DNA of 64,000 bases from Dendrobates tinctorius (taxonomy: Eukaryota): NCBI RefSeq assembly GCF_039654945.1, contig NW_027362015.1, positions 992,001-1,056,000 of the forward strand. The letters are read 5' to 3'. A program made the position numbers. Of this stretch, positions 39,001-54,000 are shown one piece after another; the stretch's first letter is position 1; every line of letters begins with the position of its first letter.

Positions 39001-42000
39001 GGGCGCAATACAAGAGCGTTATACCATCCAGGACAGACCAGAAACGTGGAGGAACCTGGAGTGTAGAGGGGCGCAATACAAGAGTGTTACGCCATCCAGG
39101 ACAGACCTGAAACGTGGAGGAACCTGGAGTGTGGAGGGGCGCGATACAAGAGCGTTCCGCCATCCAGGACAGACCAGAAACGTGGAGGAACCTGGAGTGT
39201 GGAGGGGCGCAATACAAGAGCGTTCCGCCATCCAGGACAGACCAGAAACGTGGAGGGGCGCAATACAAGAGTGTTACGCCATCCAGGACAGACCTGAAAC
39301 GTGGAGGAACCTGGAGTGTGGAGGGGCGCGATACAAGAGCGTTCCGCCATCCAGGACAGACCAGAAACGTGGAGGAACCTGGAGTGTGGAGGGGCGCAAT
39401 ACAAGAGCGTTCCGCCATCCAGGACAGACCAGAAACGTGGAGGGGCGCAATACAAGAGCGTTACGCCATCCAGGACAGACCTGAAACGTGGAGGAACCTG
39501 GAGTGTGGAGGGGCGCAATACAAGAGCCTTCCGCCATCCAGGACAGACCAGAAATGTGGAGGAACCTGGAGTGTGGAGGGGCGCAATACGAGAGCGGTAT
39601 ACCATCCAGGACAGACCAGAAACGTGGAGGCACCTGGAGTGTGGAGGGGCGCAATACAAGAGCGTTCCGCCATCCAGGACAGACCAGAAACGTGGAGGGG
39701 CGCAATACAAGAGCGTTACGCCATCCAGGACAGACCTGAAACGTGGAGGAACCTGGAGTGTGGAGGGGCGCAATACAAGAGCCTTCCGCCATCCAGGACA
39801 GACCAGAAATGTGGAGGAACCTGGAGTGTGGAGGGGCGCAATACGAGAGCGGTATACCATCCAGGACAGACCAGAAACGTGGAGGAACCTGGAGTGTGGA
39901 GGGGCGCAATACAAGAGCGTTCCGCCATCCAGGACAGACCAGAAACGTGGAGGGGCGCAATACAAGAGCGTTACGCCATCCAGGACAGACCTGAAACGTG
40001 GAGGAACCTGGAGTGTGGAGGGGCGCAATACAAGAGCCTTCCGCCATCCAGGACAGACCAGAAACGTGGAGGGGCGCAATACAAGAGCGTTACACCATCC
40101 AGGACAGACCAGAAACGTGGAGGAACCTGGAGTGTGGAGGGGGGCAATACACGAGCGTTACACCATCCAGGACAGACCAGAAACATGGAGGGCCGAGGGA
40201 CGCAATACAAGAGCGTTAGACCATCCAGGACAGAGCCGCAACGTGGAGGAACCTGGAATATGGGGGCCGAGGGTCGCAATACAAGAGAGAGTTAAACCAT
40301 TCAGGACAGAGCAGAAACGTGGAGGGGGCTGGCCCACGCCGCTGACATTCCTGTCAATCATGATAATATTAAAAACCTCAGCTATAAGGCTGCATGCACA
40401 CGTTGCAGATTCACCTGCGGAATTTTTCGCGCGGATTTAGCAAAATCTGCAGGTCAAAAGACCTGCGGTTTATCTGTGGATTAGCCTGCGGTTTACCCCT
40501 GCGGTTTCACACCTCTACAATGGAGAAGGTGTGAAACCGCTGTGGATTCCGCAGAAAGAAGTGACATGCTGCGAATTTGAAACCGTAGCAAATCCGCACA
40601 GAAAATTTCGCAGCATGTGCACTGCGGTTTTTGATTTCTATAGGTTATAATGGTACTGTACACCACAGCAAAAACTGCTGCAGATCCGCAGGGCTTAATC
40701 CACTGCAGATCCGCAGCAGAATCCGCAGCGTGTGCACATACCCTAAGAAGTGTGGCTGCTTGGAGTTGGTATCCTGTTTACAAACGCTGATCACAAAGTC
40801 GGGGAATATTGCCCTGCACCGCACAATCTGTTGAGCCTGACCTCACACAATGCACTGATCTCCACTGACATGCATCCTGCAGCTTTAGGTGTGACTGGAT
40901 GATAAGACTTCAGGATACAGGAATATAGTATATACCCAGGAGGACAGTGAGGAGGAGCGGACACTTCTAGTCCTGTCCTGTACTGATGTATATAGTATAT
41001 ACCCAGGAGGACGGTGAGGAGGAGCGGACACTTCTAGTCCTGTCCTGTAGTGATGTATACAGTATATACCCAGGAGGACGGTGAGGAGGAGCGGACACTT
41101 CTAGTCCTGTCCTGTACTGATGTATATAGTATATACCCAGGAGGATGGTGAGGAGGAGCGGACACTTCTAGTCCTGTCCTGTAGTGATGTATATAGTATA
41201 TACCCAGGAGGAAGGTGAGCAGGAGCGGACACTTCTAGTCCTGTAGTGATGTATATAGTATATACCCAGGAGGACGGTGAGGAGGAGCGGACACTTCTAG
41301 TCCTGTCCTGTACTGATGTATATAGTATATACCCAGGAGGACGGTGAGGAGGAGCGGACACTTCTAGTCCTGTCCTGTAGTGATGTATACAGTATATACC
41401 CAGGAGGATGGTGAGGAGGAGCGGACACTTCTAGTCCTGTCCTGTACTGATGTATATAGTATATACCCAGGAGGATGGTGAGGAGGAGCGGACACTTCTA
41501 GTCCTGTCCTGTAGTGATGTATACAGTATATACCCAGGAGGATGGTGAGGAGGAGCGGACACTTCTAGTCCTGTCCTGTAGTGATGTATACAGTATATAC
41601 CCAGGAGGACGGTGAGGAGGAGCGGACACTTCTAGTCCTGTCCTGTACTGATGTATATAGTATATACCCAGGAGGATGGTGAGGAGGAGCGGACACTTCT
41701 AGTCCTGTCCTGTAGTGATGTGTATAGTATATACCCAGGAGGATGGTGAGGAGGAGCGGACACTTCTAGTCCTGTCCTGTAGTGATGTATATAGTATATA
41801 CCCAGGAGGACGGTGAGGAGGAGCGGACACTTCTAGTCCTGTCCTGTAGTGATGTATATAGTATATACCCAGGAGGACGGTGAGGAGGAGCGGACACTTC
41901 TAGTCCTGTCCTGTACTGATGTATATAGTATATACCCAGGAGGACGGTGAGGAGGAGCGGACACTTCTAGTCCTGTCCTGTACTGATGTATATAGTATAT

Positions 42001-51000: not shown

Positions 51001-54000
51001 ACATCACTACAGGACAGGGCTAGAAGTGTCCGCTCCTCCTCACCGTCCTCCTGGGTATATACTGCACACATCACTACAGGACAGGACTAGAAGTGTCCGC
51101 TCCTCCTCACCGTCCTCCTGGGTATATACTATATACATCACTACGGGACAGGACTAGAAGTGTCCGCTCCTCCTCACCATCCTCCTGGGTATAAACTATA
51201 TACATCAGTACAGGACAGGACTAGAAGTGTCCGCTCCTCCTCACCGTCCTCCTGGGTATATACTATATACATCACTACAGGACAGGACTAGAAGTGTCCG
51301 CTCCTCCTCACCGTCCTCTTGGGTATATACTGTATACATCACTACAGGACTGGACTAGAAGTGTTCGCTCCTCCTCACCGTCCTCCTGGGTATATACTAT
51401 ATACATCACTACAGGACAGGACTAGAAGTGTCCGCTCCTCCTCACCGTCCTCTTGGGTATATACTATATACATCACTACAGGACTGGACTAGAAGTGTTC
51501 GCTCCTCCTCACCGTCCTCCTGGGTATATACTATATACATCACTACAGGCAGGACTAGAAGTGTCCGCTCCTCCTCACCGTCCTCCTGGGTATATACTAT
51601 ATACATCACTACAGGACAGGAATAGAAGTGTCCGCTCCTCCTCACCGTCCTCCTGGGTATATACTATATACATCACTACAGGACAGGACTAGAAGTGTCC
51701 GCTCCTCCTCACCGTCCTCCTGGGTATATACTGTATACATCACTACAGGACAGGACTAGAAGTGTCCGCTCCTCCTCACCGTCCTCCTGGGTATATACTA
51801 TATACATCACTACAGGACAGGACTAGAAGTGTCCGCTCCTCCTCACCGTCCTCCTGGGTATATACTATATATATCACTACAGGACAGGACTAGAAGTGTC
51901 CGCTCCTCCTCACCATCCTCCTGGGTATAAACTATATACATCAGTACAGGACAGGACTAGAAGTGTCCGCTCCTCCTCACCGTCCTCCTGGGTATATACT
52001 ATATACATCACTACAGGACAGGACTAGAAGTGTCCGCTCCTCCTCACCGTCCTCTTGGGTATATACTGTATACATCACTACAGGACTGGACTAGAAGTGT
52101 TCGCTCCTCCTCACCGTCCTCCTGGGTATATACTATATACATCACTACAGGACAGGACTAGAAGTGTCCGCTCCTCCTCACCGTCCTCCTGGGTATATAC
52201 TATATACATCACTACAGGACAGGACTAGAAGTGTCCGCTCCTCCTCACCGTCCTCCTGGGTATATACTATATACATCACTACAGGACAGGACTAGAAGTG
52301 TCCGCTCCTCCTCACCGTCCTCCTGGGTATATACTGTATACATCACTACAGGACAGGACTAGAAGTGTCCGCTCCTCCTCACCGTCCTCCTGGGTATATA
52401 CTATATACATCACTACAGGACAGGACTAGAAGTGTCCGCTCCTCCTCACCGTCCTCCTGTGTTTATACTGTATACATCACGACAGGACTAGAAGTGTCCG
52501 CTCCTCCTCACCATCCTCCTGGGTATATACTGTATACATCACTACAGGACAGGACTAGAAGTGTCCGCTCCTCCTCACCGTCCTCCTGGGTATATACTAT
52601 ATACATCATTACAGGACAGGACTAGAAGTGTCCGCTCCTCCTCACCGTCCTCTTGGGTATATACTATATACATCACTACAGGACAGGACTAGAAGTGTCC
52701 GCTCCTCCTCACCATCCACCATATACATGTATAGTTGTCCTGCGGGGTTGAATGTTACAATTACAGGACCTTGGGATGTGCATGGTTTCAGGGAGGTATT
52801 ATAGCCCCCAGGTTGTGTGTGCCCCCCAGGTGGTGGCGATATAGGCCTTCTGACATCGGTTCTCACCTGTTTCCGCTGGTTGCTGAGGCAGAAGGTGCAG
52901 ATTTGCTTAGGTTGGCCGTGCTCGGGCTCCAGATGTTTGGGACTGGCAGTGGTGGGGTGATGCTGGTAGTACGGGGGGCTCGTGTGGCAGGGTTGTCCGT
53001 CTCCGCATGCTTCTCCAAGCAGTAGTACATTTCCCAGATGTGAGATGTAGCTGGATGCCAGGCGTAGAGTCTCTATTTTGGAGAGTTTGCGGTCCGCGGG
53101 TTCGGTGGGAATGAGCGTGCGCAGGGCCGTGAAGGCGTTGTTGACGCTGTTGGTCCGGTCCCTCTCACGGGCGTTGGCCGTATGTCGCTGACGTGGTTCT
53201 CGATGCAGTCGCGGGCACTTTTTATGTTCCCTTTTACTTCCACCTCCTGAGTGATGGAATCCTTTTTCGCAGGAGCTGTCACTACTGCTGTCCTCATCGT
53301 CTGAGAGCATGCTGATGTCCGGGTAGAGAAAGCGGGCAGGCGGGGCATGGCGGAGCATCGCAAACGACATATTGAAGCGGTGGACAGCAATGCTGAAGGA
53401 TGACTTGGCCTCCACCTGTGACTGTATGGACGGATTGTCACTGCGTCCTCTGTGTCCCCGGACGGATGGTGCGCTGTCACTGCCTCCTCTGTGTCCTCGG
53501 ACGGATGGTGCGCTGTCACTGCCTGTGTCCCAGGACGGATGGTGCGCTGTCACTGCCTCCTCTGTGTCCCAGGATGGATGGTGCGCTGTCACTGTGTCCT
53601 CTGTGTCCCAGGACGGATGGTGCGCTGTCACTGCCTCCTCTATGTCCTCGGACGGATGGTGCGCTGTCACTGCCTCCTCTGTGTCCCCGGACGGATGGTG
53701 TGCTGTTACTGCCTCCTCTGTCCCCAGACGGATGGTGCGCTGTCACTTTCTCCTCTGTGTTCCCGGACGGATGGTGTGCTGTCACTGCAGACGGATGGTG
53801 CGCTGTCACTGCCTCCTCTGTGCCCAGATGAATGGTGCGCTGTGACTACCTGCTCTGTGTCCCCAGACGGATGGTGCGCTGTCACTGCCTCCTCTGTGTG
53901 CCTGGACGGATGGTGCGCTGTCACTGCCTCCTCTGTGTCCCCGAATGGATGGTGCGCTGTCACTGCCTCCTCTGTGTCCCTGGACGGATGGTGCGCTGTC

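What the first reader, a model, noticed from the sequence alone, without database searches (positions are those of the whole stretch)
40924..52720. ~12-kb inverted repeat built from two opposite-orientation 67-bp satellite arrays inside two overlapping antisense introns
Seen: 40924-45008 and 47721-52720 are the same 67-bp unit in opposite orientation, around a 2.7-kb spacer of old Tc1, MITE and L2 debris. The right arm stops ~150 bp from the SCX 5' splice site. The other arrays in the window are head-to-tail only. Inference: both BOP1 (+) and SCX (-) pre-mRNAs could fold ~4 kb of near-perfect dsRNA in many registers. This would loop out about three quarters of the 16-kb SCX intron, and could act as a splicing bridge, an ADAR substrate or an endo-siRNA source. 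At DNA level the spacer could flip by arm-to-arm recombination. No transposon termini were found at the outer ends, so a foldback element is not supported.
Basis: partly seen in the sequence, partly recalled or inferred. Interest (0 to 1): 0.65.

Follow-up and report, generated by a model that had tools for sequence, protein, structure and literature searches.

The report
Inverted minisatellite pair inside frog SCX/BOP1 introns
Two blocks of the same 67-base tandem repeat sit in opposite orientation inside one intron of a frog tendon gene; the structure is real and its RNA could pair into a very long double strand, but nothing yet shows that it is more than a by-product of an inversion in a repeat-crowded region.

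Summary
Window 40923-45009 (61.7 copies, + orientation) and 47720-52719 (74.8 copies, reverse complement) are arrays of one 67-bp unit around a 2,710-bp spacer of transposon debris. A 30-nt core hits 60 times on +, all in the left arm, and 75 times on -, all in the right arm, with none elsewhere.

Both arms lie in SCX intron 1 (36897-52866, - strand), which is nested in BOP1 intron 3 (26762-57802, + strand). The host is a hyloid frog; the best SCX match is Ranitomeya imitator at 95%. The right arm ends 147 nt from the SCX 5' splice site, and the repeat spans 74% of that intron.

The arms share an identical consensus and pair at about 95% in at least 10 registers. They carry private variants and no mirror order, so this is neither a fresh duplication nor a fold-back assembly artefact. 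No terminal repeats, target duplications or flank homology were found.

Best reading: one ancestral minisatellite split by an inversion in a locus that is 56% tandem arrays, probably neutral. Formation of multi-kb dsRNA is thermodynamically supported. Editing, siRNA, a splicing-bridge role and spacer flipping are untested. Long inverted repeats are common in vertebrates, so interest is modest.

The parts
40923..45009 (+). Left arm: 67-bp minisatellite, 61.7 copies, in unit orientation (purine-rich, carries GGTGAG) on the + strand. It is the first arm transcribed in BOP1 pre-mRNA.
   Evidence: TRF. Units listed. 60 core-motif hits, all on +. Junctions read.
45010..47719 (.). Spacer (loop) of 2,710 bp: a MITE-like inverted pair at 45083-45115 / 45370-45402, Tc1-like ORF debris at 45636-46376, and a LINE ORF2 C-terminal fragment with 3' tail at 46840 to about 47670.
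   Evidence: No core-motif hits.
47720..52719 (-). Right arm: the same 67-bp unit, 74.8 copies, in unit orientation on the - strand. It is the first arm transcribed in SCX pre-mRNA. It contains an exact 6-unit (402-bp) internal duplication.
   Evidence: TRF. Units listed. 75 core-motif hits, all on -. Duplication. Junctions read.
36897..52866 (-). SCX intron 1 (15,970 nt), from GT at 52866-52865 to AG at 36898-36897. It holds the whole inverted repeat.
52867..53370 (-). Coding part of SCX exon 1 (168 aa, bHLH domain).
   Evidence: Translation. Pfam HLH 2.3e-20. Anuran scleraxis hits at 83-95% identity.
36858..36896 (-). Coding part of SCX exon 2 (GKDRERKTTIRT, then stop).
26762..57802 (+). BOP1 intron 3 (31,041 nt). 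It holds the whole SCX gene and the inverted repeat, and is flanked by exon 3 (26690-26761) and exon 4 (57803-57957).
   Evidence: BOP1NT Pfam hits on the downstream exons. Lengths.

Best explanation
This is a genuine long inverted repeat. Its two arms are blocks of one 67-bp minisatellite, and it lies in SCX intron 1 and BOP1 intron 3 of a hyloid (poison-frog-like) frog.

Origin (inferred). A single ancestral array, already carrying several unit variants, was split by an inversion with one breakpoint inside the array; less parsimoniously, part of it was duplicated in inverted orientation. Each arm then changed on its own by local unequal exchange or replication slippage. The event happened in a locus saturated with minisatellites and needs no selected function.

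Consequences:
- (i) Shown thermodynamically only: every BOP1 and every SCX pre-mRNA carries both arms, and the arms strongly prefer to pair with each other in many registers. The result would be an imperfect duplex of up to about 4 kb at about 95% pairing.
- (ii) Inferred from the established behaviour of ADAR enzymes on long nuclear dsRNA: such a duplex would be hyper-edited and then discarded with the intron.
- (iii) Inferred: pairing would shorten the effective SCX 5'ss-to-3'ss path from 15,970 nt to about 4.2-5.1 kb. It would also cover the 5'-splice-site-like motifs of the first-transcribed arm.
- (iv) Inferred: at DNA level the arms are a substrate for non-allelic homologous recombination, which would flip the spacer and change arm lengths.

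I judge a neutral by-product with incidental dsRNA formation to be the most likely status.
For: Structure and orientation purity.

The inverted relation is anchored in unique sequence. The left arm is contiguous with the flank on the SCX exon 2 side, and the right arm with SCX exon 1. The two exons are collinear on the - strand. A mis-join inside an array could therefore not create the inversion.

Common origin:
- The consensus is identical in both arms.
- Mean edit distance per unit is 3.42 between arms, against 3.64 within the left arm and 3.10 within the right.
- 5 unit types are shared, out of 28 (left) and 34 (right).
- 8 of 35 variant sites are shared.
- A compound variant (a GAGCAGG substitution plus a 5-nt deletion) occurs in both arms.

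Independent later history:
- 8 variant sites are left-only and 19 right-only, and they cluster by position.
- The 60-nt units occur only on the left and the 69-nt units only on the right.
- An exact 402-bp duplication occurs only in the right arm.
- No mirror or other preferred register exists. The best diagonal means 2.71 edits, against a median of 3.46.

No sign of a mobile element: no flank homology, no matching termini and no split transposon at the junctions.

Repeat-crowded setting: 56% of the window and 67% of the SCX intron are tandem arrays.

Neutral decay: the commonest variant is a CpG transition, in 25 of 114 full-length units.

Pairing capacity.

Recombination substrate: 52 perfect complementary tracts of at least 134 nt, 6 of at least 200 nt, and a maximum of 234 nt.

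Such repeats are common: LIRBase lists 4,590,178 long inverted repeats in 208 vertebrate genomes, with a median size of 7,426 nt (passages of PMC8728187).
Against: - No outgroup or population data were available, so the age, the ancestral orientation and neutrality itself are untested.
- The identical consensus, and a between-arm distance no larger than the within-arm distances, could equally reflect ongoing inter-arm gene conversion or selection for complementarity.
- The repeat starts only 147 nt from the SCX 5' splice site.
- The first-transcribed arm of each gene carries a dense block of GGTRAG motifs: 56 in the left arm and 75 in the right, against 2 (+ strand) and 9 (- strand) in the other 21,956 nt of BOP1 intron 3. 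A functional reading could exploit this.
- The junction phases do not fit a clean two-break inversion. The left arm ends at unit phase 42 and the right arm begins at about phase 9. On the other pairing the two ends overlap by 7 nt.
- In vivo folding may be prevented by RNA-binding proteins, helicases or co-transcriptional local structure. A unit dimer folds at -46.9 kcal/mol, z = -1.9.
Confidence: 0.6

Rival explanations
1. Selected RNA structural element. The arm-arm duplex is maintained because it helps remove a long, repeat-laden intron. It would bring the SCX 5' and 3' splice sites together and mask the 56-75 decoy 5' splice sites of the first-transcribed arm. It would serve both antisense genes at once.
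For: - The duplex is strongly favoured.
- It would remove 74% of the SCX intron from the splice-site path.
- It starts 147 nt from the 5' splice site.
- GGTRAG motifs are concentrated in the sense-oriented arm of each transcript.
- The consensus is identical in both arms.
Against: - There is no conservation or expression evidence.
- The arms show ordinary neutral decay, with CpG transitions and private variants.
- Arm lengths are unequal (4,087 and 5,000 nt) and there is no preferred register.
- The decoy motifs exist only because the array exists, so masking them is at best damage control.
- Mammalian SCX manages without such an element (recalled, not tested here).
Confidence: 0.12
2. Foldback-type or composite transposable element. 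The arms are long terminal inverted repeats built of tandem subrepeats, and the spacer is the loop.
For: The architecture resembles Drosophila FB-like elements: inverted arms made of tandem subrepeats around a heterogeneous loop (recalled knowledge). The arms are orientation-pure.
Against: - The outer ends do not match. The left arm starts at unit phase 60 and the right arm at about phase 9.
- No direct target-site duplication is visible in the flanks.
- There is no flank or terminal homology.
- The unit is absent from the other 52 kb of the window.
- The loop holds only decayed, unrelated transposon fragments.
- Copy number in the genome could not be checked.
Confidence: 0.07
3. Hairpin-RNA (endo-siRNA) or piRNA-type small-RNA source locus acting on targets elsewhere.
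For: It meets the structural definition of a long inverted repeat able to give hairpin RNA. Frog introns are known to yield 23-29-nt small RNAs from transposon remnants, the siteRNAs (PMC3875865, passages).
Against: - No target was found. The unit matches nothing else in the window.
- Its translation matches no predicted protein of 84-268 aa.
- There is no Rfam match.
- siteRNAs derive from transposon remnants, not inverted repeats: the word 'inverted' occurs 0 times in that paper.
- Vertebrate somatic Dicer processes long dsRNA poorly (recalled).
Confidence: 0.06
4. Assembly artefact: a mis-join or a fold-back chimeric read.
For: Tandem arrays are error-prone in assembly, and the sequencing technology behind the window is unknown.
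Against: - The window holds no N.
- The arms are not mirror images and differ in length and in private variants.
- Each arm is joined to unique sequence on both sides.
- The outer anchors are the two collinear exons of one gene.
- Each arm (4-5 kb) is shorter than typical long reads.
Confidence: 0.05

Closest known systems
Long inverted repeats (LIRs) as catalogued in LIRBase (PMC8728187; passages read)
   Same: - Two arms over 400 nt with at least 80% matches around a loop under 100 kb.
- Located in a gene.
- Able in principle to give long hairpin RNA.
- Total size (11.8 kb) is of the order of the vertebrate median (7.4 kb).
   Different: The arms are not a duplicated unique segment or a transposon pair. 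They are arrays of a 67-bp minisatellite, so pairing is possible in dozens of registers. Both strands are transcribed as introns of two nested antisense genes.
Macro-dyad symmetries of satellite DNA in Tribolium beetles (PMC13081366; abstract and passages read)
   Same: - Sub-arrays of one tandem repeat switch orientation.
- This gives kilobase-scale dyad symmetry with unequal arm lengths.
- The authors also propose an inversion origin.
   Different: In Tribolium the sub-arrays abut at conserved inversion sites, recur thousands of times, and sit in megabase (peri)centromeric satellite. Here there is one genic, intronic, vertebrate instance with a 2.7-kb non-satellite spacer. Those authors state that such symmetries had been documented only in Tribolium.
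Foldback (FB-like) transposons (recalled knowledge; only search listings were seen)
   Same: Inverted arms composed of tandem subrepeats around a variable loop.
   Different: No matching termini, no target-site duplication, no second copy in the window and no transposase.
Inverted Alu pairs in primate introns and UTRs: ADAR substrates and circular-RNA promoters (recalled; abstracts of PMC6451121 and PMC12093144 seen in the listing)
   Same: Intramolecular dsRNA forms from inverted repeats within one pre-mRNA. The expected fate is A-to-I editing.
   Different: The arms are more than ten times longer and are tandem arrays. Both lie in the same intron with no exon between them, so back-splicing is not expected.
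Drosophila hairpin-RNA loci, for example the hp-CG4068 tandem cluster (PMC10317233; passages read)
   Same: An inverted-repeat transcript combined with tandem repetition.
   Different: hp-CG4068 is a tandem series of separate small hairpins that give Dicer-2 siRNAs against a known target (mus308). Here there is one giant hairpin whose arms are arrays, with no known small RNAs and no target.

Membership tests
Long inverted repeat (LIRBase definition) | Both arms longer than 400 nt | tested here: met
   Arms of 4,087 and 5,000 nt. Criterion taken from PMC8728187.
Long inverted repeat (LIRBase definition) | At least 80% matches and at most 10% indels between the arms; loop at most 100 kb | tested here: met
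   94.7-95.3% identity over 4,143-4,148 aligned columns with 17-19 gap openings. Loop of 2,710 nt.
Hairpin-RNA / endo-siRNA locus | Both arms in one transcription unit | tested here: met
   Both arms lie inside SCX intron 1 and BOP1 intron 3 according to the gene models. Transcription itself was not observed.
Hairpin-RNA / endo-siRNA locus | Dicer-dependent small RNAs of 21-23 nt mapping to the arms | not testable with these tools
   No small-RNA data are available.
Hairpin-RNA / endo-siRNA locus | A target gene homologous to the arms | tested here: inconclusive
   No match in the rest of the window (best E = 0.38). No protein of 84-268 aa matches the translated repeat. The genome could not be searched.
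Foldback-type transposon | Inverted arms built of tandem subrepeats | tested here: met
Foldback-type transposon | Matching terminal sequences at the two outer ends, flanked by a direct target-site duplication | tested here: not met
   The outer ends are in different unit phases (60 against about 9). The flanks share no direct repeat and no homology.
Foldback-type transposon | Multiple dispersed copies in the genome | not testable with these tools
   No eukaryotic genome collection is on hand. There are 0 copies in the other 52 kb of the window.
Satellite macro-dyad symmetry (Tribolium type) | Orientation switch within arrays of one tandem repeat | tested here: met
Satellite macro-dyad symmetry (Tribolium type) | Sub-arrays abut at a conserved inversion-site unit; recurrent in (peri)centromeric megabase arrays | tested here: not met
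   A 2,710-bp non-satellite spacer separates the arms. The locus is genic. Recurrence across the genome is not testable.
ADAR-edited intronic inverted repeat | Clusters of A-to-G mismatches in RNA over the arms | not testable with these tools
   No RNA data are available. Only the duplex potential was computed.
Conserved SCX-in-BOP1 nested antisense gene pair | A two-exon SCX inside the third intron of BOP1 on the opposite strand | tested here: met
   SCX exons on the - strand. BOP1 exons 3 and 4 on the + strand at 26690-26761 and 57803-57957. Pfam HLH and BOP1NT hits. The mouse arrangement is stated in PMC5361204 (passages). The numbering of the frog BOP1 exons assumes one exon upstream of the exon at 9854-9988, which was not verified.

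The most novel reading that the evidence does not exclude
The inverted arrangement is kept by selection as a self-neutralising device shared by two antisense genes. In each pre-mRNA the first-transcribed arm exposes 56-75 purine-rich, consensus-grade 5'-splice-site decoys. The second arm then pairs with them, hiding the decoys, collapsing three quarters of the SCX intron and marking it by editing. Recombination between the arms makes the spacer and the arm lengths a polymorphic switch that tunes SCX and BOP1 output.
Probability: 0.06. Interest if true: 0.65.

Novelty: new variant of a known kind. Interest (0 to 1): 0.3.

Why it matters
If the duplex forms, the pre-mRNA of a housekeeping ribosome-biogenesis gene (BOP1) would carry about 4 kb of intramolecular dsRNA. 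So would the pre-mRNA of the tendon regulator SCX. This would be a natural vertebrate test case for three questions:
- How cells tolerate, edit and splice around very long intronic dsRNA.
- Whether multi-register pairing of tandem arrays behaves differently from unique inverted repeats.
- How often inverted minisatellite arms drive spacer inversion.

It also shows that the dyad arrangement of tandem arrays described for beetle centromeric satellites can occur in a vertebrate gene. If, as I think most likely, it is a neutral by-product, its value is mainly as a marker of structural turnover in giant, repeat-rich frog genomes.

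Tried and rejected
- Mirror-symmetry test. Unit-by-unit edit-distance diagonals in both possible orders showed no preferred register. A recent en-bloc inverted duplication or a fold-back read artefact is therefore rejected.
- Flank and terminal homology. A word-size-7 BLAST among the left outer flank, the spacer, the right outer flank and the unit found nothing beyond one MITE-like inverted pair inside the spacer.
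- Search for a transposon split by the breakpoints. The MITE-like copy at 40384-40747 is complete, and nothing at the four junctions matches another part of the window. The ancestral orientation stays undetermined.
- Phase continuity at the junctions. Neither pairing of junctions is seamless: one shows a 7-nt overlap and the other a 33-34-nt misfit. The overlap has about a 20% chance expectation, so it is not used as evidence.
- Unit against the rest of the window: best E = 0.38.
- Rfam, whole window at gathering thresholds: 0 matches.
- Translated repeat. A 153-aa ORF from the left arm was searched against the 5.8-billion-protein set. Of 2,403 word-sharing candidates, none scored E <= 1e-5, and only lengths of 84-268 aa were searched. 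This is a weak proxy and does not show that the unit is locus-specific.
- Pfam on the spacer ORFs: no family at E <= 0.01. At E <= 1 there was only a meaningless 0.13 hit.
- Literature on Scx/Bop1 strand interplay: PMC2836086 is not held. It is known to me only from the reference list of PMC5361204.
- The dyeing poison frog genome paper (PMC11152451) contains the words 'satellite' and 'tandem' 0 times, so it gives no context on minisatellites.
- A genome-wide search for the unit, the orthologous loci of other frogs, read support, editing and small RNAs could not be checked. I did not use that scan.
- The spliced gene models were examined exon by exon. The joined SCX and BOP1 coding sequences were not built or searched.
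- Supplementary files of the papers were not seen. Those of PMC8728187 and PMC13081366 may hold per-species counts that bear on how unusual this case is.

Full report
**What is there**

Tandem Repeats Finder reports two arrays of period 67. One runs 40923-45009 (61.7 copies, 94% matches). The other runs 47720-52717 (74.8 copies, 95% matches), and reading the junction extends it to 52719.

I split both arrays into units: 61 whole units on the left and 73 on the right. After reverse-complementing the right array, the majority consensus of the 67-nt units is identical in the two arms. It was built from 49 of 61 left units and 65 of 73 right units.

A 30-nt core with up to 3 mismatches occurs 135 times. 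Sixty hits are on +, all within 40946-45012. Seventy-five are on -, all within 47741-52713. None lie elsewhere in the 64 kb, and 0 were expected from 100 shuffles. The window has no N.

The arms are 4,087 and 5,000 nt, the spacer 2,710 nt and the whole repeat 11,797 nt.

**Surroundings**

SCX, on the - strand:
- The ORF 53370-52867 encodes 168 aa with a bHLH domain (Pfam HLH, 2.3e-20).
- It ends ...SNQRKQ at a GTGAGA donor at 52866.
- An acceptor at 36898-36897 is followed by GKDRERKTTIRT and a stop.
- This gives a two-exon scleraxis gene with a 15,970-nt intron.

The exon-1 peptide finds scleraxis of frogs first: Ranitomeya imitator 95%, Engystomops pustulosus 91%, Bufo bufo 89%. The window therefore comes from a hyloid frog close to, but not identical with, the poison frog Ranitomeya. 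It is not human.

BOP1, on the + strand:
- An acidic exon lies at 9854-9988.
- A 72-nt exon at 26690-26761 ends ...DSSDEE.
- An exon at 57803-57957 starts DIRNTVGN and opens the BOP1NT domain.

SCX therefore sits antisense inside a 31,041-nt BOP1 intron, 26762-57802. This matches the mouse arrangement, in which Scx lies in the third intron of Bop1 and is transcribed in the opposite direction (PMC5361204, passages read).

I examined the gene models exon by exon. The joined coding sequences were not built or searched.

The inverted repeat takes up 74% of the SCX intron and 38% of BOP1 intron 3. Its right arm ends 147 nt from the SCX donor, and its left arm starts 4,026 nt from the acceptor.

The locus is crowded with minisatellites. 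Tandem arrays cover 56% of the window and 67% of the SCX intron. A minus-strand self-comparison finds inverted matches only between dispersed transposon copies outside the 67-bp arms.

**The spacer**

- It holds a 33-nt inverted pair at 45083-45115 / 45370-45402.
- It holds an ORF remnant with weak Tc1-type similarity. BLASTP gives E = 3e-6 against the copy at 37493-38161, which has a Tc3-type transposase HTH domain.
- It holds the C-terminal part of a LINE ORF2, 59% identical to the reverse-transcriptase-bearing copy at 1282-2625.
- The label 'L2' was not tested.

**How the arms relate**

Evidence for a common origin:
- Mean edit distance per unit is 3.64 within the left arm, 3.10 within the right arm and 3.42 between arms. 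The arms are thus no more different from each other than each is internally.
- Five exact unit types are shared, out of 28 (left) and 34 (right).
- 8 of 35 substitution variants are shared.
- One shared variant is compound: a substitution plus a 5-nt deletion. It is unlikely to have arisen twice.

Evidence for separate later histories:
- 8 variants are left-only and 19 right-only, and they sit in local clusters.
- 60-nt units occur only on the left and 69-nt units only on the right.
- Right-arm units 24-29 are repeated exactly as units 30-35, a 402-bp duplication absent from the left arm.
- No register stands out, whether mirror-ordered or not. The best diagonal means 2.7 edits against a median of 3.46.

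Together these results describe one ancestral, already heterogeneous array that was divided into two opposite blocks and then turned over locally. They exclude a very recent en-bloc inverted duplication and the mirror-perfect palindromes produced by chimeric reads.

**Is it an assembly error?**

I cannot see reads, but there is an internal argument. The left arm is contiguous with the unique flank on the SCX exon 2 side, and the right arm is contiguous with SCX exon 1. The two exons are collinear on the - strand, as one gene requires. A wrong join inside either array or inside the spacer could change lengths or spacer orientation. It could not create the opposite orientation of the arms.

**Is it a mobile element?**

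- The four array borders were read. In unit phase, the left arm runs from 60 to 42 and the reverse-complemented right arm from about 9 to 66.
- The outer ends therefore do not mirror each other.
- The flanks share no direct duplication and no homology.
- No transposon is split across the junctions.
- The unit resembles nothing else in the window.

The simplest origin is an inversion with one breakpoint in the array and one outside. The phases do not fit seamlessly for either choice of junction pair: one gives a 7-nt overlap and the other a 33-34-nt misfit. The mechanism and the ancestral orientation therefore stay open.

**RNA level**

Both arms are inside both introns, so each pre-mRNA carries both. 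Three pairs of 404-nt pieces were folded in both senses:
- Together they co-fold at -737 to -750 kcal/mol.
- Folded apart they reach -242 to -275 kcal/mol.
- With a shuffled partner (5 mononucleotide shuffles each) they reach -237 to -257 kcal/mol.
- 360-370 of 404 nt are in inter-arm pairs.

The whole left arm aligns to the right arm in at least 10 registers at 94.7-95.3% identity with 17-19 gap openings. The longest perfect tract is 234 nt. Local structure within one arm is weak: a unit dimer folds at -46.9 kcal/mol, z = -1.9, in the purine-rich sense, and at z = -0.2 in the other sense.

The capacity for multi-kb dsRNA is thus shown thermodynamically. Its formation in cells is not shown.

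What would follow is inference from established knowledge:
- ADAR enzymes promiscuously deaminate long nuclear duplexes.
- The duplex would shorten the SCX splice-site path to about 4.2-5.1 kb.
- No exon lies between the arms, so back-splicing is not expected.
- An endo-siRNA role has no candidate target. It is further weakened by the poor dicing of long dsRNA in vertebrate somatic cells (recalled).
- The frog siteRNAs are 23-29-nt products of intronic transposon remnants, not of inverted repeats (PMC3875865, passages).

In unit orientation each repeat contains ACG|GTGAGG, which matches 7 of 9 positions of the 5'-splice-site consensus (consensus recalled), within a purine-rich stretch.
- GGTRAG occurs 56 times on the + strand of the left arm.
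- It occurs 75 times on the - strand of the right arm.
- It occurs 2 times (+ strand) and 9 times (- strand) in the remaining 21,956 nt of BOP1 intron 3.

Because the genes are antisense, each pre-mRNA meets this decoy-rich orientation in its first-transcribed arm and the complementary arm second. Whether U1 snRNP binds these sites, and whether pairing masks them, is unknown. This is the basis of my most novel reading, which I rate at 6%.

**DNA level**

The arms offer 52 perfect complementary tracts of at least 134 nt and 6 of at least 200 nt. This is in the range usually thought sufficient for homologous recombination in vertebrate cells (recalled). Spacer flipping with changes in arm length is therefore plausible. 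The 2.7-kb spacer should greatly reduce hairpin or cruciform extrusion and the fragility it causes (recalled). None of this can be tested without population long reads.

**Comparison with what is known**

- By the LIRBase criteria this is an ordinary long inverted repeat. That database lists 4,590,178 such repeats in 208 vertebrate genomes, with a median size of 7.4 kb (PMC8728187, passages).
- What sets this one apart is that the arms are tandem arrays, so pairing can occur in many registers, and that the repeat lies in two nested antisense introns.
- Orientation switches within tandem arrays ('macro-dyad symmetries') are described for Tribolium (peri)centromeric satellites, whose authors say they had been documented only in that genus (PMC13081366, abstract and passages). 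There the sub-arrays abut at conserved sites and recur thousands of times.
- Foldback transposons share the architecture but not the termini.
- Drosophila hp-CG4068 is a tandem series of small hairpins with a known target (PMC10317233, passages).
- I found no paper describing this frog locus in the searches. Those searches cover only the held library.

**Verdict**

The geometric and thermodynamic parts of the interpretation are supported, and the functional parts are untested.

| Reading | My estimate |
|---|---|
| Neutral product of an inversion in a minisatellite-saturated intron, with incidental dsRNA formation | 0.60 |
| Selected RNA bridge or mask | 0.12 |
| Mobile element | 0.07 |
| Small-RNA source | 0.06 |
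| Assembly artefact | 0.05 |

Novelty: a new variant of a known kind. Interest: 0.3.

Noticed in passing
window 40923-45009 (+ strand) and 47720-52719 (- strand): Each unit carries a 5'-splice-site-like ACG|GTGAGG inside a purine-rich stretch. GGTRAG occurs 56 times in the left arm (+) and 75 times in the right arm (-). It occurs 2 times (+) and 9 times (-) in the other 21,956 nt of BOP1 intron 3. In each of the two antisense pre-mRNAs the first-transcribed arm is the decoy-rich one.
   Followed up: partly
window 53436-54125: A 39-bp minisatellite of about 17 copies (TRF rows) ends 66 nt upstream of the SCX start codon at 53370. It therefore lies in the SCX 5' UTR or proximal promoter, and copy-number changes there could affect SCX expression.
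   Followed up: no
window 1-64000: Tandem arrays cover 56% of the window: 59% of the BOP1 intron at 9989-26689, 55% of BOP1 intron 3 and 67% of the SCX intron. This is an unusually minisatellite-dense genic region, possibly subtelomere-like.
   Followed up: partly
window 21196-24162 (+): An uninterrupted 989-aa LINE ORF2 with endonuclease and reverse-transcriptase domains (Pfam 4.3e-16 and 1.1e-34). It is inserted into a 45-bp minisatellite that continues on both sides in the same orientation (17227-19090, 20585-21246, 24258-26526). It is possibly a young, active element.
   Followed up: no
window about 50389-51192 (right arm, units 24-35): An exact 6-unit (402-bp) tandem duplication: units 24-29 are identical to units 30-35. 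It shows recent higher-order duplication inside one arm only.
   Followed up: yes
both arms, unit position 15: The commonest variant is a CpG transition (GGACGG to GGATGG), in 14 of 49 left and 11 of 65 right full-length units. This fits germline methylation and neutral decay of the arrays.
   Followed up: partly
window 47720-48950 (inner part of the right arm): An A-to-T variant at unit position 11 creates CAGGTG, an E-box-type motif. It occurs in 6 of 65 full-length right-arm units, all among the innermost 17, and again in a 62-nt unit and in the terminal partial unit. It is absent from the left arm. It is curious inside the intron of a bHLH gene, but it may be chance.
   Followed up: no
window 40384-40747, 3571-3898, 55438-55731: Three copies of a MITE-like element of about 360 bp with inverted ends, 71-76% identical to one another. 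One copy sits 175 nt from the left arm. It is complete and so was not split by the rearrangement.
   Followed up: partly
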